Positions 12,380 to 51,472 of a stretch of 54,996 nucleotides of DNA are shown piece after piece. The position numbers and the translations under genes are program-made. The notes beneath the pieces are model-generated. The model was not told where the DNA came from. It ran no database searches and was given only the letters and a program-made list of their open reading frames with translations. How positions within the stretch are numbered: the first letter of the stretch is position 1; each line of letters starts with the position of its first letter. Origin of the DNA: a virus. Lineage: Duplodnaviria; Heunggongvirae; Uroviricota; Caudoviricetes. Where the stretch lies: positions 1 to 54,996 of IMG/VR virus record IMGVR_UViG_3300045988_171436; one strand, written 5' to 3'.

Positions 12380-12395
12380 TATCTTGGTTTGGATA

Positions 12396-12417
12396 AGCAG
12401 GTGTGCTTGCACCTGCT
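12396..12417. terminator. Stem-loop between convergent Q gene and moron operon
   Basis: AGCAGGTG-TGCTTG-CACCTGCT, perfect 8-bp stem. Confidence 0.5.
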
Positions 12418-12422
12418 TAATA

Positions 12423-12875
12423 TTATATGTGGGGTAATATCCAGTTTATTTTCCTCCAGGTACTTGCAAATGAAACTATTGATACGATCAGGGTCGAGAA
12501 ACCATATAAGGTTAGGGCGAAATCAAGTCTTACAGAGGTAATGGTGATTTTTTCATTTATAAACATAGCTATCAGCGGGAAAATACATGCTAATATTAAG
12601 GTAACTCCCGTAGATAACAGGTTATGAATAATTTTAGGTAAAATCTTGTTTTGTTTTAAAGCAAAAATAATTCCATCAGTACTTGAACTTGCAGAACTGA
12701 AGATGGAAATAGCGGCCAATACAAAACCAAACAAAATGCCTGCCACCGTAGATAACACTCCGGCTGTACTTAAGATATCAGAGTGAGCCATAGGCGCTAG
12801 GTATTTCCCAAGCACCCAAGCTAACAGCCCACTGATAACTATGTTAATTAAAACTTTAATAAGCATAATCATCAT
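12423..12875 (-). CDS. Small four-TM membrane protein (150 aa), second gene of antisense two-gene moron
   Basis: Four hydrophobic segments (about res 2-24, 38-60, 88-110, 120-140); AT-rich; 12 nt downstream of partner gene. Confidence 0.6.
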   Translation of the reverse strand: MMIMLIKVLINIVISGLLAWVLGKYLAPMAHSDILSTAGVLSTVAGILFGFVLAAISIFSSASSSTDGIIFALKQNKILPKIIHNLLSTGVTLILACIFPLIAMFINEKITITSVRLDFALTLYGFSTLIVSIVSFASTWRKINWILPHI

Positions 12876-12889
12876 CCTTAAAAATAAGA

Positions 12890-13822: not shown

Positions 13823-14098
13823 TAAAATTACCCTTTATTATCCTTTTGAATCAATGGGTTGTGATTTGTTAATGATCCTAGGTTCGTTGCATATGCATAA
13901 TCTATCAAAAAAAACTTACGCGGTCCGCATATTCTCGTTTACTGTGTTAAGAGTGGTTACTTCGCCACACAGCTTAAACCCGCCGTCGAGCGGTTTTTTT
14001 GTACCTGTAAACCTGGTGCAGTACAGTAAACACGCTGGTGGTCGTGAATACTGACTTTTTATCTTGCTGGCTTTTTAGACAAGAGTTATTGGTATGTC

Positions 14099-29984: not shown

Positions 29985-30431
29985 TTACTGTGCGAACACG
30001 CAATTTCGGCCTGATGGGGAGCCGACAATTCTGGACATTTTTTCGCAAATAACAGTTACTTGTTCTCCTTTTTTAAGAGCAGCAGCTGTTGATTTTTCAG
30101 AGTCTTGCATTTCCATTCTTGCTGGCATGAATTCATTTTCAGTTCTGAATTTAATAATTATAGAGTCAGTAAAGTCCTTATCAATGGATTGTACGATACC
30201 TCTAACGGCGATTAATTTACCTTTTAACTGTTCATCGGTAGCGACTTCATTTTCTTCATACTGTTTAAACAGCTGTCGAGCAGTAGTGTTGTAGATTTCT
30301 TTTTGCGGTGCCGCAGCTTCCGTATCGGATGAGTATGAAGAATTAGAGCCTTTATCGTTATTGCCTGCAAAATATCCAATAATCACCAACCCGATGAAAA
30401 TATATAAAATCCATTTTAATAATTTCTTCAT
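29985..30431 (-). CDS. Membrane-anchored OB-fold (tRNA_anti-like) protein, antisense moron in tail cluster
   Basis: N-terminal MKKLLKWILYIFIGLVIIGYFAG anchor; ...YEENEVATDEQLKGKLIAVRGIVQSIDKD... pattern of tRNA_anti-like OB-fold proteins (recalled); AT-rich. Confidence 0.55.
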   Translation of the reverse strand: MKKLLKWILYIFIGLVIIGYFAGNNDKGSNSSYSSDTEAAAPQKEIYNTTARQLFKQYEENEVATDEQLKGKLIAVRGIVQSIDKDFTDSIIIKFRTENEFMPARMEMQDSEKSTAAALKKGEQVTVICEKMSRIVGSPSGRNCVFAQ

Positions 30432-35542: not shown

Positions 35543-36469
35543 ATGCATCGTATAGACACGAAAACCGCGCAGAAGGATAAGTTCGGCGCGGGTAAGAACG
35601 GTTTTACCCGTGGTAACCCCCAGACCGGCACACCTGCCACCGATCTGGATGATGACTACTTTGACATGTTGCAGGAAGAACTCTGCAGCGTGGTGGAGGC
35701 ATCCGGTGCCAGTCTGGAGAAGGGGAGGCACGACCAGCTGCTTACCGCGCTTCGTGCGCTGCTGTTAAGCCGCAAAAATCCGTTTAGCGATATCAAATCG
35801 GACGGCACGGTGAAAACGGCTCTCGAAAACCTTGGTTTGGGAGATACAAGCGGATACGTGGGACGCTGGGTGAATACCCGGGTTTTCACGTCATCAGGTA
35901 CGTACACCCCGACGCCAGGAACAAAACGGATCAGGGTCACAATAACGGGCGGCGGTGGCGGAGGGGGCGGCTGCAAGGCTATATCCAATAATGAAACGTT
36001 TTTCGGTGCTGGCGGCGGGGCAGGTGGGACAGTAATCACCACGCTGATCCTGACGAAGGATAGTTATCCTGTCACTATCGGTGCAGGTGGGGCCGGCGGC
36101 GTTAGTGCGACGAACGGCCTCAAGGGCGGTGATAGCTCGTTCGGATCGGTAATAGCCCCTGGTGGTGAAGGTGGTGGAAAATCAGGAGTCACAAACACGA
36201 ACGGTGGTAACGGCGGCGTGCCAAGTACTGGCGGTATCAACATCATTGGTGGAAATGGAGGCGACGGTCAGTCCGGAAATATCGGCGTCAGCGGTGAAGG
36301 CGGAACATCGTACTGGGGGGGCGGTGGACGCGCAGGCGCTGGCGGTGGTGTTAGTGGTAAGGCATATGGTTCAGGTGGCGGTGGCGCATACGATGCCGGT
36401 TATAGCGGAACCAGTATGACAGGCGGGAAAGGTGCTGCTGGGATTTGTATTATCGAGGAGTTTGCATAA
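35543..36469 (+). CDS. Tail fibre protein with Gly-rich repeat domain
   Basis: 308 aa with long GGxGG repeats. Confidence 0.65.
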
Positions 36470-36885
36470 TGAATGCGTCATATGCAGTTATTGAAAATGG
36501 GATGGTTGTGAATGTCATTGTCTGGGATGGCGAGGCTGAATTCACAGTGCCGGATAATCAGCAGCTCATTGATATTTCTGATATAAGTGAGCATCCCGGA
36601 ATCGGCTGGGTGTATTCAGACGGGGTATTTACTGCGCCGCTCCCTCCGGAACGTTCTCATGATGAACTGGTAGCTGACGCTGAACAGAAAAAACAGTCGT
36701 TGATAGACGCAGCAATGGTCAATATCAGCGTGATTCAGTTAAAGCTGCAGGCCGGGCGCAAACTGACGCAAGAAGAAACTACCCGACTTAACGTTGTGCT
36801 GGATTATATCGAGGCTGTGACGGCAACAGATACCAGCATTGCACCGGATATTGAGTGGCCGGATGAACCGTGCTTCGCTGAGTAA
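36469..36885 (+). CDS. Tail fibre assembly chaperone
   Basis: ATAATG stop/start overlap; [25 protein letters not shown] typical Tfa start. Confidence 0.6.
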   Translation: MNASYAVIENGMVVNVIVWDGEAEFTVPDNQQLIDISDISEHPGIGWVYSDGVFTAPLPPERSHDELVADAEQKKQSLIDAAMVNISVIQLKLQAGRKLTQEETTRLNVVLDYIEAVTATDTSIAPDIEWPDEPCFAE

Positions 36886-36931
36886 AGTCTGTTGAGGATA
36901 AGCGGTTTAATTGTAACTCAATTCTTTTTGT

Positions 36932-36990
36932 GTAATAAAAGTAGGACAAAACTGTGACACATAAAGCCTCGCAATGGTTTGCAAGGCTTT
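36932..36990. repeat. 59-bp imperfect direct repeat, copy 1 (partner 41734-41793), with internal stem-loop
   Basis: About 86 percent identity between copies; internal dyad AAAGCCT-CGCAATGGTTTGCA-AGGCTTT. Confidence 0.7.
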
Positions 36991-37092
36991 GAACGCTTCT
37001 GTATTGATGATGTGACGCGGTTTCGTTTATTTCCATTCTATATATTGATGTCGATTTTTATGAATATAGAGCATACGGATAAACTGCAGTGT

Positions 37093-37127
37093 GATTAGAG
37101 TCAAAGTAATAGTTGTTGACTCTAATC
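37093..37127. terminator. Perfect 12-bp stem-loop downstream of acyltransferase gene
   Basis: GATTAGAGTCAA ... TTGACTCTAATC. Confidence 0.5.
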
Positions 37128-37145
37128 ATTGCAAAGTGACTTTAC

Positions 37146-38213
37146 TTAATGAAATTTATCTCGGATGAATTGTTGCGATGGTTTTTCAATGAATATATAT
37201 GACATATAGCTAATTGCCATTAATGTAAGCATGAATAAAATGAATACCTTGGGGCTGTAAAAAAGATCGCGTCCATAGCCAATCTTGTCAGCTAAATAAA
37301 CAACAATGATTTGTAAAGGAAAATGTAAAAGATAAGATGAATAACTGATATCGCCCAACCATTCAATTTTTTTCCCAAAATCGTTTCGTATTGCGCTAAT
37401 TGATACAAGGAAAAAGATTATGGAGGTAAATCCGAATAAGATAATTGAGAATATATCTGCTACTTGCAGGGTAAAGATAACTCCCCATGAGATCAATAGA
37501 AAAACACAAGCAAAAATAAAAAATAACTTTGCGCTAATATTTTTTATGGCCGCAATCGTAATTTTATAAGTCAGACCACCAATAAAGAAAGAGAATGCGC
37601 CGATCATTATGGGATTGTTAATTTTGAAAAAGTAGTACGACAATGCAACTATTAAAATTGATATGAATGTTGTTTTTGATGTGAACTTGCATAATATAAA
37701 AAATATCATGTACATAAGTACTTCAATCGACACGGACCATGTCGGGGCGTTGAAGGACCAACCTCGCTCAAATCCCCATGATTGAATCATCAATAAATTC
37801 AGAATGGCATGGTAAATGTCATTCATAGGATAAACAAAAAAATAATTATGACTTTTAAAGAAAATAATTTGTAATATTGCCACGGCAGCAAATGTAAATA
37901 TATAAAGTGGATATAATCTACTGACACGGTTAACTATAAAAGTTTTTGCTGAGGTTTTATTGCTGTGTATATTGTCAGCGTATAGATAAAAAAATATGAA
38001 TCCAGAAATCATAAAAAACAATTCGACAGCATATAAACCGTAATGATAAAAGACGGAAAAAAATTCATAAAAAGGTTGGCGGTTTATGATTATGTCAGAT
38101 GCAGCATTCTTTTTCATAAAAAAATGTTGCCAATGCCATAACACAACGGAAAGTGCGGCAAATCCTCTCAGAACATCCAGGGTATATATTCTCTTCCCAA
38201 AAACATTCGTCAC
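37146..38213 (-). CDS. Integral-membrane acyltransferase (acyltransferase-3 family; O-antigen acetylase-like)
   Basis: 355 aa, about 10 TM segments, N-terminal LDVLRGFAALSVVLWH motif; very AT-rich. Confidence 0.8.
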   Translation of the reverse strand: MTNVFGKRIYTLDVLRGFAALSVVLWHWQHFFMKKNAASDIIINRQPFYEFFSVFYHYGLYAVELFFMISGFIFFYLYADNIHSNKTSAKTFIVNRVSRLYPLYIFTFAAVAILQIIFFKSHNYFFVYPMNDIYHAILNLLMIQSWGFERGWSFNAPTWSVSIEVLMYMIFFILCKFTSKTTFISILIVALSYYFFKINNPIMIGAFSFFIGGLTYKITIAAIKNISAKLFFIFACVFLLISWGVIFTLQVADIFSIILFGFTSIIFFLVSISAIRNDFGKKIEWLGDISYSSYLLHFPLQIIVVYLADKIGYGRDLFYSPKVFILFMLTLMAISYMSYIFIEKPSQQFIRDKFH

Positions 38214-38704
38214 AACGAACCTCTTTTAATAAAGTCAAGTGATAATGAAAGATAAATATTGTAAACGAAAAAGCACTGGACTGGAACATATATCTCTGCC
38301 TATAATTTAACTAGGAAAATTTTACTAACGCAGTCATAATTCGTTCATGTATACCAGATGAAAGTACATGTTCTATGAAATAGGGTTTTGCCTGGAGTTT
38401 GAAGGTTTTTAACGATTATACCTGTTTAATCGACTCCCCATGTTTTTTGACATTATCCACCGCACACGATACTGGATGCCAGGTAAACTGATTTGCTGGC
38501 ATAAAGTCACTGAGAATTTTTTACCAACAATATCTTGCCACATCTTTTCCCGCACAGTTTCGGCAATAGAATCAGCGGGCAGCGGTCATCAATATTCACC
38601 AGACATTGATCTGCCGCACTATCTGACCGGTGTCCTGCTGAGAATACTAATTTCTTTTTTTGCAAGTGCTGTCCAATCATGATTGGGGGGGGGCCGGCGG
38701 AGTT

Positions 38705-38744
38705 GAAACCGCAGGTACGTTGTATGCAATAACGTGCTGCGGTT
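38705..38744. repeat. Conserved hairpin element, copy A (partner 39725-39765)
   Basis: GAAACC + stem + core ACGTTGTATGCAATAACGTGCT; stem AAACCGCAG/CTGCGGTTT. Confidence 0.6.
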
Positions 38745-38764
38745 TAATCTTATCAATTGAATAC

Positions 38765-39634
<870 letters not shown>

Positions 39635-39724
39635 CTAACCCTTTGAATTTACATAGCGCAAAAAGATACCTTTCCTCATAATGTGAGCTAATTTTATGTT
39701 TCGTTTGATGATCGGATCGGTCTC

Positions 39725-39765
39725 GAAACCCGTAGCCACGTCGTATGCAAGAACGTGCTACGACT
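39725..39765. repeat. Conserved hairpin element, copy B
   Basis: GAAACC + stem + core ACGTCGTATGCAAGAACGTGCT; stem GTAGCC/GCTAC differs from copy A but pairing is preserved. Confidence 0.6.
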
Positions 39766-40101
39766 GGCTGGTGAACTTCCGATAGTGCGAGTATTGAATG
39801 ATTTCCAACTGTTATCGATTTTGCGTATTTTTTGCATGAGAGGATTTTTACCTCCTCCCACCGATCCTCCATGGCTTTACGCCAGTGTCTCTGGTCTGCT
39901 ATGTGCCAGAAGCGGACGTTGCGGGACGTCAGATATCTAAAAAAACTAATGGTCCGCTTGGATAGATACTTACACAGGATGCAATAAAGAGTTTCTATTT
40001 CTTTGTGGTAGCAAACTTTGATTTCTGAAGGATAATACCTCCAATAAGTTGAAATCACATATATCGCTAAAGACTCTATACAACAACCAAGAGAGACCGC
40101 A

Positions 40102-41487
40102 ATGGATAGTGTCAGTAGTGTTGAGCGTTTAAGAACAAAAGCTTTTTATCAGTTGCTTGTGGATAGGCTTGGAACTGAGGCCTGGGCTGCTCGCAAAGCT
40201 GCATATTTCAAGCGCATAAGAGAGAAGGAGGCTAAGTTTAACATCAATCTGCCGATAGAGCCCCAGCTCTTCATACCAGCAGAAGATGACATCGACTGGT
40301 ACATTCTGGCGTCGTATCTGTCTCATGATTTTCCATATAGTGATGCTACTTACAGCAGCAGACGTATCTACCCCTATGCTATGGCCATCGGAGCTGTTGC
40401 AGACCAGCTTCGCAAAGTCCCATACGTCGATGATGTTCTGGACAAAATGCTAGCAAATAACAATAAACCAGAAACTCAAATTTTTGAGCTGCTGACGGCA
40501 TCGTTCTACCTAAAGAACGGCTATGAGGTTGCCTTCATCCCAGAAAGCAGCATTGTTTGGCCCGATGGAAAGACCAAAAAATCACCGGATATGCTTGTCA
40601 AGTTAGGTGATCTGGAGTTCTACGTCGAGTGCAAAAGGTCGGATAAGCAAACCAAGTACTCAAAGACAGAAGAGCAAGCCTGGGCCAACATCTGGCATCA
40701 ATTGAGCCAACATATGCTCAAAGTCGCACCATGGAACATTGTCGATATAATTTTCCATGAGCAGGTCGCCAGTGTGACTCCGGCAGACGTTATTAAAGCG
40801 GTGAATCTAGCCATTAAAGGGGGGACGGGAAAAGCTAATGAAGGTTCAATCAGTGTGGGAATACGAGCCATCGACAAATTAGGTCTCAGACGTCACTACA
40901 GAAAATTTTCAGTCAGAGCCAATAGCCCACAGCATGAATTGCTGGTATTTGGGGATCTAGATAGCAATGAGAAACGAAGTATCTCGACTATCGCTCAGAG
41001 AGTTATTCGTCCTGGCACCAATAACGATATTCTCAACATTTTTGTAGAGGATGTTGCAAAGTGCGTTGGAGCTCAGTGGCGCTGCGATCATGAGATTTCT
41101 CTTGGCCTCAGATCCAAGCATTTCAAGAGCTTGCTCAATGATGGAGTCATGCAGATTCCCCCTGATCGTGCTGGCGTGGTGCATATTTGGTATGAGACTT
41201 GCGAAGGCATAGATATTGAAGAACTACGTAGGGATAAAAACATGGAGCATATCTCGGCCTACGATGCCTCTAAAACAACTGTGTTGGGTGCTTTCCTGCA
41301 TGCCGTTAATTATTACCCATTAGAGGACAACTATGAGTGGGCTGAGACTGTTCAAGACTTTGCCCGTGTCCCGGATTTGATGGGGCTCTTCCTTAGACAG
41401 CCATTGATGCTTACATCTGACTCGACGCGTGGGGTCGAAGGTGTCACACATTGGGAGCAAGATAAGGCCGCAAAAAGCATGCGTTGA
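40102..41487 (+). CDS. PD-(D/E)xK nuclease-like protein with large unknown C-terminal region (461 aa)
   Basis: ELLTASFYLKNGYEV ... SPDMLVKLGDLEFYVECKRSDK gives the E / PD / ExK triad spacing. Confidence 0.5.
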   Translation: MDSVSSVERLRTKAFYQLLVDRLGTEAWAARKAAYFKRIREKEAKFNINLPIEPQLFIPAEDDIDWYILASYLSHDFPYSDATYSSRRIYPYAMAIGAVADQLRKVPYVDDVLDKMLANNNKPETQIFELLTASFYLKNGYEVAFIPESSIVWPDGKTKKSPDMLVKLGDLEFYVECKRSDKQTKYSKTEEQAWANIWHQLSQHMLKVAPWNIVDIIFHEQVASVTPADVIKAVNLAIKGGTGKANEGSISVGIRAIDKLGLRRHYRKFSVRANSPQHELLVFGDLDSNEKRSISTIAQRVIRPGTNNDILNIFVEDVAKCVGAQWRCDHEISLGLRSKHFKSLLNDGVMQIPPDRAGVVHIWYETCEGIDIEELRRDKNMEHISAYDASKTTVLGAFLHAVNYYPLEDNYEWAETVQDFARVPDLMGLFLRQPLMLTSDSTRGVEGVTHWEQDKAAKSMR

Positions 41488-41733
41488 AAGTGGCTGGAAT
41501 ATGGCGATACTGGGAACATAACTATTCACCGCGTTTCATAACCCACTCTCGGCTGATTAACACACGTTATCGTTGGAGGAAAGGACCAATTCCCTACGTC
41601 CGCTCCTCGCTCATAACAGACATAAACTTCAGTTATGGCATAAAGGTATGCATGCTGGGTGGGGAAAGTATGAAGGAAAAGAAGACTGCTGCGCCGTTTG
41701 TCGTCACGTTTATCTTCATTGGCTATGCAAGTC

Positions 41734-41793
41734 GTAATACAAGGTGGGACAAAACTGAGACACATAAGGCCTCGCAATGGCTTGCAAGGCTTT
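41734..41793. repeat. 59-bp imperfect direct repeat, copy 2
   Basis: Aligned to 36932-36990. Confidence 0.7.
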
Positions 41794-41869
41794 ACATGTT
41801 TTGATGTGGTGGGACGTGTGAGCGCAGTATTGATGGGGTAATGCTTTGAATTAGAAGCGGATTCTTATA

Positions 41870-41916
41870 ATTCGTAATGCGAAGGTCGTAGGTTCGACTC
41901 CTATTATCGGCACCAT
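41870..41916 (+). repeat. attR core: duplicated 3' end of tRNA-Thr
   Basis: Exact 47-bp copy of 7-53. Confidence 0.8.
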
Positions 41917-42264
41917 CTTTTCTCGTAAAATCATCAGGTTACTATTGCAGAGTTTTGCTTTGTTTAACACTAATGTGCAATTTTGCGCGTTGTAGGTGTG
42001 GCAAAATTGTGGCAAGTCCAGTGAGATTGTTTGTGGCTCAATGCAAGGGTATGCTAACAGCACGTGTTACCTTTTAGCTCCCGCCTATCTTGCCTTTTGA
42101 GCAATATTTCTACTTCTTGTTACGGACGTTGTCAGGCCTGCACGGTTAGGTTGAAAGGATGTTACTACAACAACATACACAGGCATTCAAACGCGGTTAG
42201 TCGTCCATTTGGGAATTTGCATTGACTTGGCTACCTGACCTGCCCCCACGATTAGATACAACAC

Positions 42265-43098
42265 TCAGTTAGTAACGTCGGAATCTTCATTCTCAGAATG
42301 ACCCTTTCTCCAGCCCGCTGCAAATTCAGACGGTGTCTGATAATTCAGCGTGGAGTGCGGGCGGCATTCGTTATAATCCTGCCGCCAGTCATTAATAATT
42401 TTCCTGGCATGAACGATATCGCTGAACCAGTGCTCATTCAAACATTCATCGCGAAATCGTCCGTTAAAGCTCTCAATAAATCCGTTCTGCGTTGGCTTGC
42501 CCGGCTGGATTAAGCGCAACTCAACACCATGCTCAAAGGCCCATTGATCCAGTGCACGGCAAGTGAACTCCGGCCCCTGGTCAGTTCTTATCGTCGCCGG
42601 ATAGCCTCGAAACAGTGCAATGCTGTCCAGAATACGCGTGACCTGAACGCCTGAAATCCCAAAGGCAACAGTGACCGTCAGGCATTCCTTTGTGAAATCA
42701 TCGACGCAGGTAAGACACTTGATCCTGCGACCGGTGGAAAGTGCGTCCATGACGAAATCCATCGACCAGGTTAGATTGGGCGCCGCCGGACGGAGCAGCG
42801 GCAGACGTTCTGTTGCCAGCCCTTTACGACGTCTTCTGCGTTTTACGCCCAGACCACTGAGGTGATAAAGCCGGTACACGCGCTTATGATTAACATGAAG
42901 CCCTTCACGGCGCAGCAACTGCCAAATACGACGGTAGCCAAAACGCCTGCGCTCCAGTGCCAGCTCAGTGATGCGCCCTGATAAATGCGCATCAGCAGCC
43001 GGACGGTGAGCCTCATAGCGGCAGGTCGACAGGGATAAACCTGTAAGCCTGCAGGCACGACGTTGCGACAGACCGGTCGCATCACACATCAACATCAC
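42265..43098 (-). CDS. IS3-family transposase OrfB (DDE integrase domain)
   Basis: DDE-type catalytic region (WSMDFVMD ... TDQGPEF ... [16 protein letters not shown]). Confidence 0.85.
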
Positions 43099-43121
43099 GG
43101 CTTCCCGCTTCTGGTCTGTCG

Positions 43122-43385
43122 TCAGTACTTTCGCCCAAGAGCCACCTGAAGCGCCTCTTTATCCAGCATGGCTTCGGCAAGCAGCTTCTTGAGTCTGGTG
43201 TTCTCTTCCTCAAGCGACTTCAGGCGCTTAACTTCAGGCACCTCCATACCGCCATACTTCTTACGCCAGGTGTAAAACGTGGCATCGGAAATGGCATGCT
43301 TGCGGCAGAGTTCACCGGCGGGTACCCCAGCTTCGGCTTCGCGGAGAATACTGATGATCTGTTCGTCGGAAAAACGCTTCTTCAT
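43122..43385 (-). CDS. IS3-family transposase OrfA (HTH)
   Basis: 87 aa, HTH plus leucine-zipper-like C-terminus, directly upstream of orfB. Confidence 0.85.
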
Positions 43386-43831
43386 GGGGATGTCCTCATG
43401 TGGCTTATGAAGACATTACTAACATCGGGGTGTACTAATCAACGGGGAGCAGGTCATACCCATTCGCATTTTACTTGGACATCTCTAACAAAAATGCAAC
43501 CAATACCCAGTTAAACTGGAAGATAGCTTTGAGCGAACAGCGGAAGTTCATAGTTGTTCAAATTTCTGATGAAAGCTTTACCAGCCTCGCTATGCCACTC
43601 CTTCCCACACTATGGATATTTTCCTTAATAGTCATACCGAACGAACTTGAGTGGCTTATGCGCAAATGTTCTAATCTTCTTGTCTCAGCCATCATTGCTC
43701 TGGTACTGGATTGTATTTCTTGGTATAGGATAGCCCCCTTTACAGGGGGGCAAATGTAAAGCAATCTTTTTTGCATTGAGTTTCTACTTCCAGTGAATGC
43801 GTATTTAATTATTAAATATTACTTATGTTGA

Positions 43832-45190
43832 TTAAACTTTGAAATTGCCATCTAAATGTTGTTCAAATCGCCCTGTTAATATCAATAACTGGATTAAAAG
43901 GGAGGATACTCTATTTCTGTTGGAGTCGATACCTAACATATATAAGTCACCGGCAACTGTATTTATATTGCCATGCTCAATGCAATTTGGTAGCATTTTT
44001 AAATCTTGAGTTTTTAGTATTTTTTTGTATTTTCGTCCGATTAATTCAACAACCTTTTTCGTCCCAATCTCAGATATAATCTTATATGGACAATTGAAAA
44101 GCTCAAAAAAAATCTCATATTCTTCTTGAGACTTTTCTAGCAATTCATTTAGTTCTAAAAAAAAGTCTTTCCCATTAATATATTCTTTCCATATGTCCAT
44201 ACGTACAACATTTTTTTTATCATAGTATGGTTCTAAACTTGAAATCGGTTTTCCAATGACAATATCATTATTTGTTGATTTATAGTTGAACTTAACATAG
44301 CCCTTTAGTAAATTGTTATTACCCTCTTCTGTATTTTGGTGGTTTTTATTTATTGCTGTCATAATCATGGTTTTTGATTTTTGATTCCACGAATTGTCAT
44401 TATCTATCAAATTTGAATCTACAAGTATGTTATTTATAGTGCTATTATTGCAACTTAATATTTTTATTTTACCTTCTTCAATATACGGAGCATCAGAATC
44501 GAGAGATAGTTTATACCAACGTGATTTATCCCCATCTTTTTTTATTGCCAACCCAAAAGGCTCATTGGTTCCTACACCAACATATAATGGCAAATAAATT
44601 TTTTTGCCATTTACTTGGTTGCATTTTATTATTTTTAGATGAATTTTTTCTTTTTCTACATGTAGAAAATTATCTTTAAAATAGTCACGCAACTCTGTGT
44701 GATTTATTTCATTAAAGTCAATTTGGCTTATTTTTCTTGAAACATCAAATTGCTTATCCCATTGAGGAAACTCGAAAAATTCTAAATCAATGACTACACC
44801 ATCCTTAAGGCCTAGTTGTCTTAAATCGTTTAAGATACTATCATTTTGTATTACCGATTCTTTCCTGGAAACCTCAATGCGATAATCTAAACCCATAAGG
44901 TGATAATTGAAGTTATGATATAATGATGTCCTGAAATCCCATCGTCCAAATAAGTCCTTTTCGATACCACGATCCTCTTTGATGAATTTAAAAAGTTCAA
45001 TCCCAAAAAAAGAATTTTCCACATCATTAATTAAAGAAAAATTGAATTTTTCGTTTGAATATATGAAGCTCTTTAAAATATAAGGTAGGTTTTTGTCCGG
45101 GCCTAATATTTCATCTGTCATTATTACATCTGACTTAATTAAATCATTTGTTTTTTTAATTCTTTCATTTATTGATTCAATAAATCTCAT
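43832..45190 (-). CDS. Hypothetical protein (452 aa), very AT-rich
   Basis: Long ORF, Asn/Lys/Ile-rich; no recognised motif. Confidence 0.5.
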   Translation of the reverse strand: MRFIESINERIKKTNDLIKSDVIMTDEILGPDKNLPYILKSFIYSNEKFNFSLINDVENSFFGIELFKFIKEDRGIEKDLFGRWDFRTSLYHNFNYHLMGLDYRIEVSRKESVIQNDSILNDLRQLGLKDGVVIDLEFFEFPQWDKQFDVSRKISQIDFNEINHTELRDYFKDNFLHVEKEKIHLKIIKCNQVNGKKIYLPLYVGVGTNEPFGLAIKKDGDKSRWYKLSLDSDAPYIEEGKIKILSCNNSTINNILVDSNLIDNDNSWNQKSKTMIMTAINKNHQNTEEGNNNLLKGYVKFNYKSTNNDIVIGKPISSLEPYYDKKNVVRMDIWKEYINGKDFFLELNELLEKSQEEYEIFFELFNCPYKIISEIGTKKVVELIGRKYKKILKTQDLKMLPNCIEHGNINTVAGDLYMLGIDSNRNRVSSLLIQLLILTGRFEQHLDGNFKV

Positions 45191-45808
45191 ACATCCCTCA
45201 CTTGTTTTTATTGAAATGATTTTGATATTTTAAGGTAAATACATGAAAAATAAAATGAGAAAAAGTATATAAAACGATACACTTTGTATAAGAATAGTGC
45301 CACATACCTAAACCTCTACTTATTATTTTTTCTTTACGATTTAATATCATAGATTTATCCTCATTTATCCAAACGTATAAGTCTGTATGAAACATTATAT
45401 CTCACGAATTTAGCCTGTCTCAGAAAAGACTGAACATAATTACGGTTTAGCCCAGTTAGGAAAAGTGAAGCTGATGGGCTTCTTTATTTCAGGGAGCTTT
45501 AGGCTCCAACCAAGCGGTAACGTCACCGGCACCGTTGATAAAGTCAAAAAGGATGAACGACTGTTCCAGTCTCATGCAAGAATTAATTACTTGATATCCA
45601 GCATGAAAAATAAAACTCACCGGCATTACCATTTGCCACTACATCTATATATCTCATGCGTATACTTGTATTCATTATTATTCCCCATGGTCAAATACTA
45701 TCACTCCTTTGTATATTACAATGGTTTAATGCAATAAACTGCTAAAGCACTGCATTTAAACTTTTATCCAACGAGTGAAGGCCATTGTAATTAACTTAAA
45801 AGCATGAG

Positions 45809-46807
45809 CTAACTTTGCTTATCATTCAATTTGTCAAGTAGTATTTTTAACGTAAGCAAAAGTCGCTTTTGAAATTGGTTGGTGATTTCTGGGAGTCGAT
45901 GATTTATTTTAGTATCACCACTATAAAATAAATTTCGACTTTTATACGACTCAAAACGTCCTTCTGATGTTTGGTCAGGGAAAAGCAAATATTTTTCAAT
46001 GCATGCATTGTTCAGGATAACTCTATATGCTTTTGGCATATCGTCTAAAAGACCATCATGTATGATATGGTTTCGAACACATTCTATTTCATTAATAAAT
46101 GGACATTGCTCAAATAAAGATCCTTCATAATTATTTAAGCTCACTTTCTTTTTGTCGCCATATTGAGAGTTTTTGGCTGTCAATTTAACATAAGTAGAGA
46201 ACTGTGTTTTTAAATTTTCAATTTCTATAGCTAGTTTTGTTATGTAGTCAAGCAAACTGTGCATACGGATATAAATAAAACTAAGTAATGCAAAGAGCTT
46301 GGTCACGACTGGTGATGTCACATATCTTATACCGTCCTCCTCTTTAATGTTAGGGTAAAACAAGGGTTCAAAATTTAACGTGTAATAAAACTCCCCTTGA
46401 AGTTGCATCACTTCCTTGCTGCACTCCTGTATGCTACTTACAATTTTACGGCAATCAAAAAGGTAAAGGGCTTTGTTTACGTCAGTATTTCCTTTAAATT
46501 TATCAATAAATAAAATAAATGTTTCTTTTGAAACTACGGATTCTGAATTCAGACCTGCTGTTGATAAAAACTCAGGGGCCATATAAAGGAACTTGTGGTA
46601 GTTTTCTAACCCATCAAAAATGCTATTAGCTATAGCATCATGGATATTAACGCATAATGCATCGATCGCATAAAGATGATTCTCTCTGTTTGGGTACCAT
46701 CCTCCTTGAGGATCATGTATAAAGTAAATATCTTCACCTCCAATAGATTCAGTTGGTATCCCTTTTAAAGTCAAATACATGTTTTCATGTGAAGGTATCA
46801 TATCCAT
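45809..46807 (-). CDS. Hypothetical protein (332 aa) with HEPN-like Rx4H motif
   Basis: AT-rich; C-terminal ECVRNHIIHDG matches the R-x4-H signature; surrounding helices predicted. Confidence 0.5.
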   Translation of the reverse strand: MDMIPSHENMYLTLKGIPTESIGGEDIYFIHDPQGGWYPNRENHLYAIDALCVNIHDAIANSIFDGLENYHKFLYMAPEFLSTAGLNSESVVSKETFILFIDKFKGNTDVNKALYLFDCRKIVSSIQECSKEVMQLQGEFYYTLNFEPLFYPNIKEEDGIRYVTSPVVTKLFALLSFIYIRMHSLLDYITKLAIEIENLKTQFSTYVKLTAKNSQYGDKKKVSLNNYEGSLFEQCPFINEIECVRNHIIHDGLLDDMPKAYRVILNNACIEKYLLFPDQTSEGRFESYKSRNLFYSGDTKINHRLPEITNQFQKRLLLTLKILLDKLNDKQS

Positions 46808-47157
46808 AATTTTTCTGGAATTCCTCTTATGAAGCGAAAAACTGAGATGTGTACATAGGTTAATTTAAACAAGATAATCAAAATTTGAAAGCAATAATTT
46901 TTCATCTCAGGGGTTATCAAAAGACGCAGGGGGTTATATGGGTTTTTCTTTACTCAACCTAACGTCCGCTCCTGGCACAGAGCGGAAAAGCTCACTGGGC
47001 CAAAGGTCTGCTGTGAGCGAGGAGAGGAAGTTCCAGTGTTCTGCAACAGACGAAGGCCCTAATCAATGGATAGCTGGTAATGGTTAATATGCCATTGCTC
47101 TAAGTTAAAAGAATCTGTGTGCTCCTGGCTCTGGTAGTCTCAATGAAGATAATATTA

Positions 47158-50100
47158 TCAAGGTGAAGTGATCGTTTTAAATACATCAAAAAAATAAGAT
47201 GGGAAGCCTTGTAGCATTACTTCAAATCTCTCTGGGTTTTGTCGAATCATGTGTCGGGCGTCAAAACTAACTTGAATAGCACCTTGAGTCGTTCCTTCTG
47301 CAAGACACTGGGCAATTACGCGTTCAGCAAATCCCGCTTCAAAAAAGGCAATGCAACTCTGATTCGGAAGTCCATATTTCAATCGCTTCTGAAGAAGATC
47401 AACATATTCTCTAAAAACCTCACCCGCCTGTTCTGAAGAGAACGCGAGAAAGGATTCCTTTACCGCTGCGAGCAACAGCGCAAACTCAAAGCCAAATGTT
47501 TGTTCACACAGGTCTACAACCACATCAAGATCAAATTTTCTTTGGTTCGCACCATAGGGATAGGATGCACCCAATTTGTCAAGCCGTTGAACGAGAGCTG
47601 CAAACGAATCTCCAGCCAGCCACCCCAATGCTAATTTCTTAAGTGCCCCATTAGGAACTATGTCGCTCAACCGTTTTTCATTAGATAAGAGTACTAAAAG
47701 CGGCCATAGCATATCAAACAGGTGATCGGCAGAGGTTGCTCCCTCGAGTGCGTTTGCATTTGTAGTGACCCATGATTCGATTGCCAACGCTTGATCAATA
47801 CCTAACAAAGTCCGCCCGAAACGCTTCTGGATCGCTGTATCTGGAACAAAAAGTTCGATCCTTCGCGCCACAGACTCGAAGATATCTGTCAGGAGTATTT
47901 TTTGCTCTTCAGTGGCAAGCGAGTAGGCAAGTGTTTCAGTAACCAATTCTCGAGAGTTGTCCACAAAAGTTTCGGGCTGAACATCACTACGATATGTCAT
48001 TAAGAAGCTTTCAACAGCTTCAATTATCTTTTTCTTGGATTTAAGTTGTTCGATTAGTGAAGCGACCGAAAAGTTCTGTTTAGGAATATTGATAGGAACG
48101 CTCTCTACCCACTTTAAAAGAGCTTCCCAGTCATTGACAATGTAAGTGGCTACTTCAGCAGAGCTTGGAGAGCTTAGAATAACTGTTCCGAGGTCATTTC
48201 GCAGAGGATCGAAAAGAGAAAGCAATGTACTTCCAGTTGGCTCAGCACTATCAGGATTGATTAGATTGATCGTTTCTTGCCAACGGTACGTCTTTGCGAA
48301 ACGCTCGTCATAGAGACGGGGGTCAGTGAAAATAACAGTACCCTCACCGTACATTCCGGCACGTCCAGCGCGTCCCATGAGATTATGGAAGTCGCGTACT
48401 TTGATCGATTCACGCCCCTGCATTGCGCTTGTTACAAGTAGGTATCGAATCGGAAGGTTAACACCCTGTGCAAGCGTCGAGGTGCAGATGATCAATCGAA
48501 TAAGGCTTTGCCTCATAGCATACTCAATAGCCAGACGAACACCTTGGGGAGTGTTGCCGTGATGAGCAAAAATGCCTAAAGCAGCTGCTTGTGTCAAATA
48601 TGCATTAGCACCAAAATTACGTTCGAAGAGATAAACAAAGCGACGAATCTCATTAGGGTCACTATGGGCAGAAGGTGGCTCAAGTGAAATTCCACGACGA
48701 AAAATATCTTCGGCGGCCTCACGAACAATTTTTGCAGCAGAAGACTTTCTTCCTGTGAAAATAGCAACCCCACCATTTTTCAGCAGACGTAAACTAAGAT
48801 ATAACGCTATGGAGCCACTCTCCTGAGTAGGGAAAAAACGATCCTTTCTTTCCTTAGGTAATCGAGGCATTTTTTCTGAAACAATAACTCGCGGGACAAA
48901 GAATTTCTGATCGCTATCAGAGGCCACATTGAACTGAAGTTGACCATCTTTACCTTTCGGAAGGCTGGCAAAGGCAATGAGTCTACTAGCCTGTAAGGCT
49001 CTACTGGAGACAACCTTTGAACCGTCATTTAATAGCCATGCAGCAACAGAAGCAGCATTCTGAATTACTGCTGAAATCAACACGCTCTGGGCATTTTCGT
49101 GTAGCATTCGCTTAATGGATGTTAACAGCAGTTCATAAGTTACACCCCGGCTGCCTGTGTCAAACTGATGCCCTTCGTCATAAACTACCAATCCAGCTTT
49201 CTGAACAATGTCTGGCTCTTGTCGAAGTATGTAAAGAAGCTTTTCCGGGGTAAGAATAATGACTTGTGGCTTCGATTCGACCTCTGAGTCAAATATTCCA
49301 GATTCCAAATCGAGAAAATCTGATAAGTTAGAAAAATCGAACTCGACATCTGGTTGCAACGCGTCACTGGGTTGATTGACGTCATAGCCATCATCCTTGA
49401 ATGCCTTTTCAAGATCGTTTGCTATCTCTTGGCATAGTGCGCGGAAGGGGGCAATAACTAAAGCCAATTTCGTACGAGCAGAAAGAAATGCCGACCGAAT
49501 AATAAGCTCGGTAGCTCTAGATTTCCCGGCGCTCGTCGGCATCTGAACAACACCTGATGTCCCTTTATACAATCCAGCCTCTCCTAGCAAGCGCTGAGAT
49601 GGCCACATTTCCTTAATTGACATAGAACGCGATAAATATGTATCCCACTTTTCTTGCGGGAGGTTGCTATAGCGTGGAAGTAATGTCCAAGCAGAATTAG
49701 CGATGCGAGTGGCACTAATCGCTCCGAGCAAATCGGCCATAAGTAGGTCATGTGCAGACGCATGGCTATAGGCCCATTCGCGCAATGATTTAATAGCATC
49801 ATTGGCTTTCTGTCGGCCATTCAGGCCATTTCTGAAGTGTTGGCTCAAAACATCCAAAATATCTTTTGCACGTGAAGACTCTAGTGTCTCGTTGGTATGC
49901 TCCCAAGGCCGATCCATCGCAGTTTTAACTGCAATAGCTAAAGTATCGTGCTTAGGAAAATCTAGTTGGCTCAGTTTAGATAATTGGACTGCAGCATTTC
50001 CGGGTACATCACCAAGATAGAAACCAGCAGCGGCAAGTATGCGAAGATTGAAGGAGAGTTCTTTGTTAAGCAGGGAATCCTCAAAAGCTTGAAGGACTTG

Positions 50101-50373
50101 AGCCGAAAAAATAACCTCATCCAGTGGGGTTTGGGATTGTGCTTCAATCGAATTGCCGATGGTCTTAGCCACCACTTCGGACGCAAAGTCACCGACAGTA
50201 CCAACAGCTAATGGAAACTGCATCTCCAAATTGAGATCATCAGGAAGCTCTATATGGTCTCCTTCAGGAACTCCATACTCAAACATTTTTCCTTTTGATA
50301 GCGTAACTGCCGCCGCATATCGAGCACGTTTTTTAGGCTTCATTTTCTGCCCTCCAATAGAGAGCGTGAACAA
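47158..50373 (-). CDS. hamB: SF2 DExH helicase (Hachiman HamB-like)
   Basis: Walker A QMPTSAGKSRA, motif II VYDEGHQF, motif VI HNLMGRAGRAG; 41-nt overlap with upstream gene. Confidence 0.6.
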   Translation of the reverse strand: MFTLSIGGQKMKPKKRARYAAAVTLSKGKMFEYGVPEGDHIELPDDLNLEMQFPLAVGTVGDFASEVVAKTIGNSIEAQSQTPLDEVIFSAQVLQAFEDSLLNKELSFNLRILAAAGFYLGDVPGNAAVQLSKLSQLDFPKHDTLAIAVKTAMDRPWEHTNETLESSRAKDILDVLSQHFRNGLNGRQKANDAIKSLREWAYSHASAHDLLMADLLGAISATRIANSAWTLLPRYSNLPQEKWDTYLSRSMSIKEMWPSQRLLGEAGLYKGTSGVVQMPTSAGKSRATELIIRSAFLSARTKLALVIAPFRALCQEIANDLEKAFKDDGYDVNQPSDALQPDVEFDFSNLSDFLDLESGIFDSEVESKPQVIILTPEKLLYILRQEPDIVQKAGLVVYDEGHQFDTGSRGVTYELLLTSIKRMLHENAQSVLISAVIQNAASVAAWLLNDGSKVVSSRALQASRLIAFASLPKGKDGQLQFNVASDSDQKFFVPRVIVSEKMPRLPKERKDRFFPTQESGSIALYLSLRLLKNGGVAIFTGRKSSAAKIVREAAEDIFRRGISLEPPSAHSDPNEIRRFVYLFERNFGANAYLTQAAALGIFAHHGNTPQGVRLAIEYAMRQSLIRLIICTSTLAQGVNLPIRYLLVTSAMQGRESIKVRDFHNLMGRAGRAGMYGEGTVIFTDPRLYDERFAKTYRWQETINLINPDSAEPTGSTLLSLFDPLRNDLGTVILSSPSSAEVATYIVNDWEALLKWVESVPINIPKQNFSVASLIEQLKSKKKIIEAVESFLMTYRSDVQPETFVDNSRELVTETLAYSLATEEQKILLTDIFESVARRIELFVPDTAIQKRFGRTLLGIDQALAIESWVTTNANALEGATSADHLFDMLWPLLVLLSNEKRLSDIVPNGALKKLALGWLAGDSFAALVQRLDKLGASYPYGANQRKFDLDVVVDLCEQTFGFEFALLLAAVKESFLAFSSEQAGEVFREYVDLLQKRLKYGLPNQSCIAFFEAGFAERVIAQCLAEGTTQGAIQVSFDARHMIRQNPERFEVMLQGFPSYFFDVFKTITSP

Positions 50374-51172
50374 ATTTCATAAGCGATTTAGCATGTATCA
50401 CAACCAACATAAGGTTTTTAATATTTTCATGCGAAGTGCAGTCTGTAGTTTTAGATATATGAACCGGATCATAAAGACTTGAACAAAAAACAGCCGCCGC
50501 CCCTGTCATTCGTACATAAGGGACATCCAACCCTTCTTGAAAGCGTTCCACGCGATCTGCACCTTCTTCATCTTGATGATCAATTAAACGGCGCTTCATC
50601 GCATTAAGGGATTCTGAAATTCTATACACATCCTTTATCGAGTCGATAACGGCGTCTTGCAATCTAGGCTTTGCTTTCTTACCACTGAGTTGTGCTTTCG
50701 ACTCAAAAGAAATCAAGATATCTTTTGTAGATGGCCGTGATGGGCCTATGCCATCAAACTTAAACGCTAAGACATCTGTTCCCTTTGGGGACTCGTTGCG
50801 AACCATTTTGTTGTCATATCGGGTACGTGGAACCCAAAAACCAAAATGGCTTTCAAGTAGATCCGCGATAAGGATTTCAGCAAAATCACCGGAGCGCGTT
50901 GCTGGGCCAAAATCTTCAGACTCATCAGGAAACACCAAGTCTCTCAAATACTCGGCTCGCGATTTGTTAGTCCCTCTGCGCAGGCGATCAATTTGGCTAT
51001 CAAGACAGTAATGCTCACGGAAATGTTTGGCCCATGCGGATAGTACAAGCCCTGCTTCAAGATCGATTTCGAGCTCGTATACCTCTACCTCATTGCCGTC
51101 AGAAGTGGTTATGCTATGTTCAGCTTTTTTGAGCCAAGCTGAGTACGGTTGTCCAGCATTCATTGTAACCAT
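50333..51172 (-). CDS. hamA: HamA-like (DUF1837-type) protein, putative PD-(D/E)xK-like
   Basis: 279 aa immediately upstream of and overlapping the helicase; GTDVLAF ... ISFESKAQL acidic/Lys pattern. Confidence 0.45.
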   Translation of the reverse strand: MVTMNAGQPYSAWLKKAEHSITTSDGNEVEVYELEIDLEAGLVLSAWAKHFREHYCLDSQIDRLRRGTNKSRAEYLRDLVFPDESEDFGPATRSGDFAEILIADLLESHFGFWVPRTRYDNKMVRNESPKGTDVLAFKFDGIGPSRPSTKDILISFESKAQLSGKKAKPRLQDAVIDSIKDVYRISESLNAMKRRLIDHQDEEGADRVERFQEGLDVPYVRMTGAAAVFCSSLYDPVHISKTTDCTSHENIKNLMLVVIHAKSLMKFVHALYWRAENEA

Positions 51173-51472
51173 TTTTGCTCTTTCTTAAGCACTCCGTGGC
51201 TTAACACTTTGAGATGCGACGGCGAAATCGACAGTTTGCGGGCATAGTACTCCCTTTGATTTTACTGCTATGAGCTCCGCAGGGTGAATATATTGATGCC
51301 TAAGACGGTAAGCCAGGTAATACGAGAAAACAGGCCCTAAATTGTCCATATAAGATGGCATGAAACTGCCGACTTTGGTAGCCGATCTTACTCGAATGTG
51401 ATGATGACATCATTGGCATAGCGGTATATTAGTCAACAGAGAACAGGTGTGTAGCAAAGTAAGGGGAAATCA

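What the first reader, a model, noticed from the sequence alone, without database searches (positions are those of the whole stretch)
37146..38213. Phage-borne acyltransferase-3 family membrane protein: likely O-antigen acetylation (serotype conversion)
The protein is a roughly 10-TM acyltransferase with the N-terminal LDxLRG...H motif typical of O-acetyltransferases such as Oac. It is very AT-rich, has its own terminator (37093-37127) and lies in the cargo module. Receptor modification would also act as superinfection exclusion against O-antigen-dependent phages.
Basis: partly seen in the sequence, partly recalled or inferred. Interest (0 to 1): 0.4.

Follow-up and report, generated by a model that had tools for sequence, protein, structure and literature searches.

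The report
Phage-borne surface-sugar acyltransferase tied to O8/O9
A temperate E. coli phage carries, right next to its tail-fibre genes, a membrane enzyme that most likely adds acetyl groups to the host's O-antigen; it is an ordinary kind of phage 'disguise' gene, but it is found almost only in strains with the mannose-polymer O8/O9 antigens, which gives a precise testable target.

Summary
Window 37146-38213 (-) is an intact 355-aa ORF and a full-length AT3 acyltransferase (Pfam PF01757). It has ten TM helices (AlphaFold pLDDT 91) and the R16-X10-H27, FFxISG and RxxR motifs. Its GC is 32%, against 52-58% in the tail genes. The claimed terminator is a real 13-bp hairpin but has no U-tract. The gene lies in the cargo end of a complete temperate myovirus, next to the defence gene PD-T4-3.

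The O-antigen reading gains new circumstantial support:
- Homologs at 42-44% identity in Pseudomonas and Xanthomonas sit inside ABC-transporter-type O-polysaccharide clusters.
- Enterobacterial homologs always abut phage receptor-binding genes.
- In E. coli the gene occurs in 49 of 5,426 complete genomes and is contiguous with one glycine-rich fibre tip plus Tfa in 48 of them. That block recurs on different phage backbones and at about four or five integration sites.
- 44 of 48 carrier chromosomes are O8, O9 or O9-derived, against a background of about 9.5%.

Sequence cannot fix the substrate. Sf6 Oac and WecH are only remote relatives, and no good promoter was found.

Verdict: a new, uncharacterised member of the known class of phage AT3 O-antigen modifiers, probably acting on polymannan. 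Interest is moderate.

The parts
37146..38213 (-). AT3-only membrane acyltransferase CDS (355 aa, GTG start), identical to RefSeq WP_032170751.1
38220..38225 (-). Shine-Dalgarno sequence AAGAGG, 6 nt before the GTG start
   Evidence: read directly from the sequence
37093..37127 (-). Perfect 13-bp hairpin starting 19 nt after the stop codon. It has no U-tract, so it is not a canonical intrinsic terminator. It could be a weak terminator or an RNA 3'-end stabiliser.
38214..38737 (-). Upstream region of about 520 bp that always moves with the gene. It holds only weak promoter candidates (38347-38319 and 38287-38258) and one GATC site.
35543..36469 (+). Tail fibre (308 aa): StfP-like N-terminal anchor plus a glycine-rich receptor-binding tip (Pfam Gly_rich_2). 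The tip, from about 35831, is part of the mobile block.
36469..36885 (+). Tail fibre assembly protein (Caudo_TAP), convergent with the acyltransferase
36938..36990 (+). Left copy of a 53-nt direct repeat. It contains a GC-rich hairpin followed by TTT and is the probable late-operon terminator.
41741..41793 (+). Right copy of the 53-nt direct repeat (91% identical), near the prophage end. The two copies bracket the cargo region.
38765..39538 (-). Neighbouring cargo gene: a GIY-YIG nuclease matching the PD-T4-3 anti-phage defence protein

Best explanation
The gene is a lysogenic-conversion gene of a temperate, Mu-like-tailed E. coli phage. It encodes an inner-membrane, AT3-only O-acyltransferase.

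Proposed mechanism (inferred):
1. The ten-helix protein takes an acyl group, most likely acetyl from cytoplasmic acetyl-CoA, at the conserved R16...H27 pair of TM1.
2. It passes the group through the membrane.
3. It esterifies a hydroxyl of the host O-polysaccharide at the periplasmic face. This would happen while the polymer is still undecaprenyl-linked, after Wzm/Wzt export and before WaaL ligation.

The most likely acceptor is the polymannose O8/O9 antigen. The expected consequences are an altered O-epitope and reduced adsorption of phages that use the same receptor. That would include the phage itself, whose glycine-rich fibre tip is inherited together with the gene.

Shown here: family, fold, motifs, intactness, selection, phage carriage, linkage to the fibre tip, and the host O-type association.
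Inferred: donor, acceptor, expression in the lysogen, and the exclusion phenotype.
For: Family and fold:
- PF01757 matches over the full length.
- The R-X10-H, FFxISG and RxxR motifs are those that PMC7448272 shows to be conserved, and partly essential, in characterised AT3 carbohydrate acetyltransferases. All are invariant in the subfamily.
- The AF2 model is confident, at pLDDT 91.

Functional state:
- All five copies compared are intact, with dN/dS 0.04-0.39.

Phage carriage:
- The gene is inside a complete 43.7-kb circular phage record.
- It lies beside the defence gene PD-T4-3.

Context of homologs:
- In Pseudomonas and Xanthomonas they sit in Wzm/Wzt-type O-polysaccharide clusters, next to Gtr-like periplasmic modification genes.
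- In Serratia, Klebsiella, Citrobacter and one metagenome contig they sit next to tail fibres or a beta-helix tailspike.

Linkage:
- Tfa and the acyltransferase are contiguous in 48 of the 49 genomes that hold the gene.
- The block of fibre tip, Tfa, acyltransferase and upstream region is shared at 94% identity with a different phage backbone.
- The block is found at about four or five integration sites: thrW, dusA, proL and yfhH were seen directly, and one further context was not identified.

Host type:
- Of 48 carrier chromosomes, 35 are O8, 7 are O9 and 2 are IS1-degraded O9.
- The background is 5.5% O8 and 3.9% O9. Fisher p = 1.6e-34 for O8.
- The fibre tip itself is in O8/O9 genomes 75% of the time, against 5.7% elsewhere.

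Precedent:
- Sf6 Oac, SfII OacD, PhiV10 and BTP1 OafB are phage AT3 enzymes that modify the phage's own O-antigen receptor (PMC9558356).
- Polymannose O-antigen is a known phage receptor (PMC10743462).
Against: - No experimentally characterised enzyme is close. Sf6 Oac gives BLASTP E 0.011. Profile matches to Oac and WecH are partial. NCBIfam has no model for it.
- No convincing sigma-70 promoter lies upstream, and AT-rich DNA may be H-NS-silenced.
- I found no report of O-acetylated O8/O9 polymannan in the searched literature.
- At least one carrier (CFSAN064035) has a Wzx/Wzy-type O-antigen.
- EJN001 keeps an intact gene although its O9 export genes are deleted.
- Most of the O8/O9 association is already explained by the fibre tip. 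Tip-only genomes are 72% O8/O9 against 87.5% for carriers (p 0.03). The association may therefore reflect host range rather than enzyme substrate.
- Genomes are not phylogenetically independent, so the p-values overstate the evidence.
Confidence: 0.6

Rival explanations
1. The enzyme acylates a different envelope glycan of these strains, not the O8/O9 polymannan. Candidates are a group 1 or group 4 capsule or K-LPS, enterobacterial common antigen, colanic acid, or the LPS core.
For: - From my own knowledge (not tested here), O8/O9 strains are the classical carriers of group 1 K antigens, so the host association fits this reading as well.
- EJN001 has lost the O9 export genes but keeps an intact acyltransferase and has a Klebsiella-like capsule locus.
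- CFSAN064035 has a non-polymannan O-antigen.
- The Klebsiella aerogenes homolog abuts a pectate-lyase-type tailspike, which could be a capsule depolymerase.
- WecH shows that AT3-only enzymes can act on ECA, and it matches the N-terminus at 90% probability.
Against: - Group 1 K antigens are structurally diverse, whereas the enzyme is at least 95% identical across carriers.
- The O9 carrier a15 has a complete colanic-acid locus, so it is not a group 1 capsule strain.
- The non-phage homologs sit in O-polysaccharide clusters, not capsule clusters.
- E. coli already has WecH for ECA.
Confidence: 0.2
2. The gene is active but is merely a passenger of the fibre-tip module. Its benefit is to the host, for example antigenic variation, or resistance to serum, immunity or protozoan grazing. 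It does not affect adsorption of its own phage.
For: - The O8/O9 association is largely a property of the fibre tip.
- 245 tip-bearing genomes lack the gene, so the tip does not need it.
- The review lists immune and virulence roles for O-acetylation.
Against: - Adjacency to receptor-binding genes is conserved in five genera and on unrelated tail modules. That is hard to explain without a functional link to adsorption.
- The neighbouring cargo is anti-phage (PD-T4-3).
Confidence: 0.12
3. The gene is transcriptionally silent or a functionless remnant of horizontally acquired AT-rich DNA.
For: - There is no good promoter.
- GC is 32%.
Against: - The five copies translated are intact, and RefSeq annotates an acyltransferase under the match in every carrier record listed.
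- dN/dS is well below 1, and all catalytic residues are invariant across homologs at 40-86% identity.
- A good Shine-Dalgarno sequence is present.
Confidence: 0.05
4. The enzyme O-acetylates peptidoglycan, or supplies acetyl to another periplasmic transferase. That would change sensitivity to lysozyme or endolysin rather than the phage receptor.
For: AT3 proteins include OatA. WecH can replace PatA when PatB is present.
Against: - There is no SGNH domain and no SGNH or PatB-like partner gene in the locus.
- None of the homolog contexts involves cell-wall genes.
Confidence: 0.03

Closest known systems
Oac (OacA) of Shigella phage Sf6, with its relatives OacB, OacC and OacD
   Same: - AT3-only protein of about 330-355 aa with the same R-X10-H, FFxISG and RxxR motifs.
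- Carried by a temperate phage just after the receptor-binding gene, on the opposite strand, near the prophage end.
- Presumed role: modify the phage's own O-antigen receptor.
   Different: - Only remote sequence similarity (BLASTP E 0.011; hhalign probability 81% over 159 columns).
- Different phage type: a contractile Mu-like tail with a fibre, rather than a P22-like podovirus with an endorhamnosidase tailspike.
- The probable acceptor is an ABC-transporter-made homopolymer (mannan), not a Wzy-polymerised rhamnose-containing repeat unit.
O-acetyltransferase of E. coli O157 phage PhiV10 (the TL-2011b homolog was the one compared)
   Same: An E. coli temperate-phage AT3 protein reported to modify the O-antigen and act as an immunity protein (PMC9558356).
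   Different: Only 26.5% identity (E 3e-8). It belongs to an epsilon15-like podovirus and targets O157, a Wzy-dependent antigen.
Lag-1 of Legionella pneumophila and chromosomal AT3 genes inside ABC-transporter O-polysaccharide clusters
   Same: - AT3-only enzymes.
- From my own knowledge, Lag-1 acts on a homopolymeric O-polysaccharide exported by Wzm/Wzt.
- The Pseudomonas and Xanthomonas homologs of the window protein (42-44% identity) sit in exactly such clusters.
- Lag-1 O-acetylates the legionaminic-acid O-antigen.
   Different: - These genes are chromosomal, not phage-borne.
- The Pseudomonas and Xanthomonas proteins are themselves uncharacterised.
- Lag-1 was not compared by sequence here.
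OafB (BTP1 GtrC family II) and OafA of Salmonella
   Same: Prophage-borne O-antigen acetylation (OafB) that protects against the phage's own tailspike. The AT3 catalytic motifs are shared.
   Different: - Those are AT3-SGNH fusions with an 11th helix and a periplasmic transferase domain. The window protein has neither.
- oafB is phase-variable through Dam/OxyR. Only one GATC lies upstream here.
Human HGSNAT and fungal GWT1 (the only solved structures of this fold)
   Different: About 12-13% sequence identity, eukaryotic, with different acceptors. They inform the mechanism only.

Membership tests
Acyltransferase-3 (AT3, Pfam PF01757) | Profile match above the curated threshold over the whole domain | tested here: met
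   86.6 bits against a cutoff of 31; residues 10-334 match profile positions 2-320 of 326
Acyltransferase-3 (AT3, Pfam PF01757) | Ten transmembrane helices with the AT3/HGSNAT fold | tested here: met
Acyltransferase-3 (AT3, Pfam PF01757) | R/K-X10-H motif in TM helix 1 (essential in OafA; PMC7448272) | tested here: met
   R16 and H27 are invariant in 40 homologs
Bacterial AT3 carbohydrate O-acetyltransferases | FFxISG motif and RxxR motif | tested here: met
   F66-F67-M-I-S70-G71 and R96-V-S-R99. F66, F67, S70, G71, R96 and R99 are invariant.
AT3-only architecture (as opposed to AT3-SGNH fusions) | No 11th helix and no C-terminal SGNH domain | tested here: met
   The protein is 355 aa, the AT3 domain fills it, and Pfam finds no second domain
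Oac/OacA orthologous group (Sf6-type O-antigen acetylases) | Close sequence relationship to Sf6 Oac | tested here: not met
   BLASTP E 0.011 over 86 residues. hhalign probability 81%, 159 columns. Not filed as an Oac ortholog.
WecH (ECA O-acetyltransferase) | Close sequence relationship to E. coli K-12 WecH | tested here: not met
   hhalign probability 90% but only 77 N-terminal columns. No NCBIfam equivalog hit.
Phage lysogenic-conversion (serotype-converting) module | Carried inside a complete temperate phage genome, outside the structural operons | tested here: met
   The 43.7-kb circular phage record contains it between the Tfa and integrase/attP cargo. The window prophage has an integrase, lysis genes and head and tail genes.
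Phage lysogenic-conversion (serotype-converting) module | Restricted to hosts that have the cognate O-antigen | tested here: met
   44 of 48 carrier chromosomes are O8, O9 or O9-derived, against about 9.5% background. At least one exception was verified.
Phage lysogenic-conversion (serotype-converting) module | Expressed in the lysogen | tested here: inconclusive
   The gene is on the strand opposite the late operon and has a good Shine-Dalgarno sequence, but only weak promoter matches
Phage lysogenic-conversion (serotype-converting) module | Changes O-antigen chemistry or serotype and blocks adsorption | not testable with these tools
   Needs LPS chemistry, serology and adsorption assays

The most novel reading that the evidence does not exclude
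This would be the first phage-encoded modification system for the ABC-transporter-made polymannose O-antigens (O8/O9, identical to Klebsiella O5/O3). An AT3-only enzyme would acetylate the finished mannan in the periplasm. It would be co-mobilised as a single cassette with the receptor-binding fibre tip and its chaperone, so that 'key' and 'lock-changer' move together between unrelated phage backbones. It would imply unrecognised O-acetylated subtypes of O8/O9.
Probability: 0.4. Interest if true: 0.55.

Novelty: new member of a known kind. Interest (0 to 1): 0.4.

Why it matters
Phage-borne AT3 O-antigen acetylases are textbook serotype-conversion genes, so the kind is known. This particular subfamily is uncharacterised and has no close characterised relative. 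Here it is tied to a specific and unusual target class, the O8/O9 polymannans made by the ABC-transporter pathway.

If confirmed, it would matter in three ways:
- It would reveal hidden chemical heterogeneity in two very common E. coli (and Klebsiella) O-serogroups that are relevant to serotyping and glycoconjugate vaccines.
- It would affect host-range prediction for phages that dock on polymannose, including T5-like phages.
- It would give a clean example of a receptor-binding tip and a receptor modifier travelling as one cassette.

It also offers a small AT3-only enzyme with a simple homopolymer acceptor for mechanistic work.

Tried and rejected
- Megablast of the locus against deposited phage genomes found nothing. 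tblastn found only relatives at 38% identity or less.
- NCBIfam and PADLOC have no model for the protein.
- Rfam found no RNA in 36400-42200.
- The tRNA scan found no att-site tRNA in the window, so attL and attR were not defined. The right end was placed at about 41916 by comparison with other genomes.
- The promoter and terminator scans did not support a canonical promoter or terminator for the gene.
- A gtr-like Dam/OxyR phase-variation switch was considered and rejected, because only one GATC lies upstream.
- Orthology to Oac or WecH was considered and rejected.
- The Kluyvera homolog (59% identity) is an orphan chromosomal gene and gave no functional hint.
- Literature searches found no description of this gene or of O-acetylated O8/O9.
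- I did not type PC-NDM34, 22AR0322 or PD7. The window's own host O-type cannot be read from the window.

Full report
**1. The observation**

An AAGAGG ribosome-binding site lies 6 nt upstream.

Pfam Acyl_transf_3 matches residues 10-334 (86.6 bits against a cutoff of 31). PHROG 3333 'O-acetyltransferase' matches at E 2e-40. NCBIfam has no model for it.

GC is 32% (GC3 33%), against 57-58% in the adjacent fibre and baseplate genes.

The sequence at 37093-37127 forms a perfect 13-bp hairpin (MFE of the 81-nt stretch -20.5 kcal/mol, z -4.0). No U-run follows it, and the terminator scan does not call it. 'Own terminator' is therefore only partly right.

**2. The protein**

An alignment of 40 homologs at 38-86% identity shows several invariant blocks:
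- D13, R16 and H27, which form the R-X10-H motif of TM helix 1.
- F66, F67, S70 and G71, the FFxISG motif.
- R96-x-S98-R99, the RxxR motif.
- Two subfamily-specific polar blocks, WGFExGWSFNAPxWSVSIE and GDISYSSYLLHFP.

Pearson et al. (PMC7448272) found the first three motifs conserved across 30 characterised AT3 carbohydrate acetyltransferases. The R, H and RxxR residues were essential in OafA.

The protein is therefore an AT3-only transmembrane acyltransferase with an intact catalytic signature.

It is not an ortholog of any characterised enzyme:
- Sf6 Oac gives BLASTP E 0.011 and hhalign probability 81%.
- K-12 WecH aligns only over 77 N-terminal columns.
- The PhiV10-like phage enzyme is 26.5% identical.
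- The PDB sequence search is empty.

**3. Genomic setting**

The window is E. coli. The gene is identical to WP_032170751.1.

It lies at the end of a complete prophage. That prophage has an integrase at 67-1230, lysis genes, an HK97-type head, and a Mu-like contractile tail and baseplate.

The local gene order is:
- YmfQ
- a 308-aa fibre with an StfP-like anchor and a Gly_rich_2 tip
- the tail-fibre assembly protein
- the acyltransferase, convergent with the Tfa
- a GIY-YIG gene
- a variable slot (39918-41595)
- the prophage end at about 41916

Other points about the setting:
- The GIY-YIG gene is a full-length match to the defence protein PD-T4-3 (E 4e-140).
- A 53-nt direct repeat containing a terminator-like hairpin (36938-36990 and 41741-41793) brackets the whole cargo region.
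- A 43.68-kb circular record from strain AH02 is a complete relative of this phage and contains the gene. Its order is an integrase beside a dusA fragment, then DinI, a type II R-M system, PD-T4-3, the acyltransferase and Tfa. The gene is therefore truly phage-borne, and the phage is probably active.
- In the commoner e14/O157-type relatives, the same slot holds the pin invertase and alternative fibre tips.

**4. Distribution and linkage**

| Feature | Complete E. coli genomes (of 5,426) |
|---|---|
| Acyltransferase | 49 |
| Tfa and acyltransferase contiguous | 48 |
| Fibre tip plus Tfa (any match) | 293 (262 at ≥80% coverage) |
| PD-T4-3 | 853 |

The fibre tip with its Tfa also occurs on P2-like prophages and on phage-plasmids of about 90 kb.

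The block of fibre tip, Tfa, acyltransferase and the 520-bp upstream region (window 35831-38737) recurs at 94% identity on a different phage backbone with a DUF2612-type baseplate. This is seen in the O8:H8 strain 16F5M1D1 and in IAI1.

The block is found at about four or five integration sites. thrW, dusA, proL and yfhH were seen directly, and one further context (CFSAN064035) was not identified.

All five copies compared are intact, with dN/dS 0.04-0.39.

**5. What homologs elsewhere say**

- Pseudomonas savastanoi, another Pseudomonas and Xanthomonas albilineans (42-44% identity): the homolog lies inside O-polysaccharide clusters of the ABC-transporter type. These clusters contain Wzm, Wzt with Wzt_C, a WbdD-like methyltransferase, a double-GT4 polymerase and rml/gmd genes. 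The homolog sits next to Gtr-like periplasmic glycosylation genes.
- Serratia marcescens (49%): it lies between a Gp53-like fibre anchor and a 703-aa protein.
- Klebsiella aerogenes (46%): it lies between a Gp53-like fibre anchor and a pectate-lyase/beta-helix tailspike.
- Citrobacter (86%) and a metagenome contig (79%): it follows fibre and chaperone genes at a prophage end.
- Kluyvera (59%): an orphan chromosomal gene.

The subfamily is therefore consistently associated either with O-polysaccharide synthesis or with phage receptor-binding genes.

**6. Host O-type**

Two carriers known or suspected to be O8 prompted this test, so I built chimeric BLAST queries. Each joined the acyltransferase segment to a serotype-specific wzt/wbdD segment. 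Carriers rank first, and 'places_in_record' shows whether the marker is also present.

The O8 marker came from IAI1, whose genes RefSeq names 'O8 family'. The O9 marker came from carrier a15, named 'O9 family'. The two markers share no similarity.

| Carrier group | Chromosomes (of 48) | Evidence |
|---|---|---|
| O8 | 35 | |
| O9 | 7 | |
| O9-derived: wbdC, wbdB and wbdA kept, wbdD/wzt/wzm removed by IS1 (EJN001; sister strain EBJ001 not examined directly) | 2 | |
| Same sequence group as CFSAN064035, which has a Wzx/Wzy-type cluster (the other two not checked) | 3 | |
| Acyltransferase region interrupted by IS1, O-type not checked (PD7) | 1 | |

Background frequencies are about 301 genomes (5.5%) for O8 and 212 (3.9%) for O9. 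Fisher's exact test for O8 gives an odds ratio of 52 and p = 1.6e-34. Requiring only four independent acquisitions, all in O8 hosts, gives about 1e-5.

Inclusion-exclusion with tip-plus-marker queries shows that the fibre tip is itself tied to these hosts:
- 120 O8 and 99 O9 among 293 tip-bearing genomes, which is 75%.
- 5.7% among genomes without the tip.
- Tip-bearing genomes that lack the acyltransferase are still 72% O8/O9.
- Among tip carriers, the acyltransferase is skewed to O8 (35:7 against 85:92, p 3e-5).

All these p-values ignore clonal relatedness.

**7. Interpretation**

The simplest reading is as follows. The glycine-rich tip adapts these phages to O8/O9 polymannan strains, and polymannose O-antigen is a documented phage receptor (PMC10743462). 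The adjacent AT3 enzyme modifies that same surface polymer in the lysogen. This is the logic established for Sf6 Oac, SfII OacD, PhiV10 and BTP1 OafB (PMC9558356).

Because O8 and O9 are assembled in the cytoplasm and exported by Wzm/Wzt, acylation would occur on the undecaprenyl-linked polymer in the periplasm. This matches the placement of the Pseudomonas and Xanthomonas homologs beside Gtr-like periplasmic modifiers.

Several things remain inferred: the acyl donor, the acceptor, expression and the exclusion phenotype.

Points against:
- There is no good promoter.
- I found no literature record of O-acetylated O8/O9.
- There are a few non-polymannan carriers.
- The association could be host range alone.

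The main rival is another glycan typical of these strains, such as a capsule or K-LPS.

**8. Novelty and score**

This is a new, uncharacterised member of a well-known kind, phage-borne AT3 O-antigen modifiers. It is not a new mechanism.

Three things here are new:
- the specific link to O8/O9,
- the precedent-poor target class, an ABC-transporter homopolymer,
- the co-mobilised cassette of fibre tip and modifier.

Interest is 0.4.

Noticed in passing
window 38765-39538 (-): The GIY-YIG gene next to the acyltransferase is a full-length match to the anti-phage defence protein PD-T4-3 (E 3.8e-140). It occurs in 853 E. coli genomes, usually beside the pinE invertase of e14-like prophages.
   Followed up: partly
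window 39918-41595: This is a variable cargo slot. Here it holds a 461-aa ORF (40102-41487) and an overlapping 106-aa ORF (41484-41804), neither with a Pfam or PADLOC hit. Related prophages carry DUF6650, a 'lysogenic conversion protein', SIR2, a lipase or a type II R-M system at the same place. It may hold an uncharacterised defence gene pair.
   Followed up: partly
window 36938-36990 and 41741-41793: A 53-nt direct repeat (91% identical) containing a GC-rich hairpin plus TTT brackets the whole cargo region. The left copy probably terminates the late tail operon. The duplication may mark how cargo was inserted.
   Followed up: partly
window 35840-36890: The glycine-rich fibre tip with its Tfa is found in 293 E. 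coli genomes, on Mu-like and P2-like prophages and on phage-plasmids of about 90 kb. 75% of those genomes are O8 or O9, against 5.7% of the rest. This suggests the tip is specific for polymannan-serogroup hosts.
   Followed up: yes
window 42265-52837: Beyond the prophage end lie an IS3-family transposase (42265-43098), two unknown ORFs in DNA of 29-35% GC (43832-45190 and 45809-46807), a Hachiman defence system (HamB 47158-50373, HamA 50333-51172) and a 454-aa ORF with no PADLOC hit (it was not scanned against Pfam). Together they look like a second defence island stacked at the same locus.
   Followed up: partly
window 29985-30431 (-): An OB-fold (tRNA_anti-like) gene on the opposite strand sits between the tape-measure and DNA-circularisation genes. 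It is another moron inside the tail operon.
   Followed up: no
L004 (NZ_CP081704.1) and NZ_CP081794.1: Circular 'plasmid' records of 43.7 kb in strains AH02 and CT01 duplicate a chromosomal prophage. They probably represent the excised, replicating phage genome, which would make it an inducible source of this phage for experiments.
   Followed up: partly
window 35543-36469 (+): RefSeq (PGAP) splits this continuous 308-aa fibre ORF into a 'StfP pseudogene' and a separate 'glycine-rich domain protein'. In the window it reads through as a single ORF.
   Followed up: partly
window 12000-14000: A low-GC island (36-38% GC) inside the early and regulatory region holds minus-strand ORFs at 12423-12875 and 12890-13822. 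It is likely to be another moron or cargo insertion.
   Followed up: no
L025 (EJN001, NZ_CP086338.1 2714696-2720473): The O9 cluster is truncated by IS1, which has removed wbdD, wzt, wzm and the man genes. A Klebsiella-like capsule and rml locus lies next to gnd. This is an O9-lineage strain that has probably become O-antigen-negative and encapsulated.
   Followed up: partly
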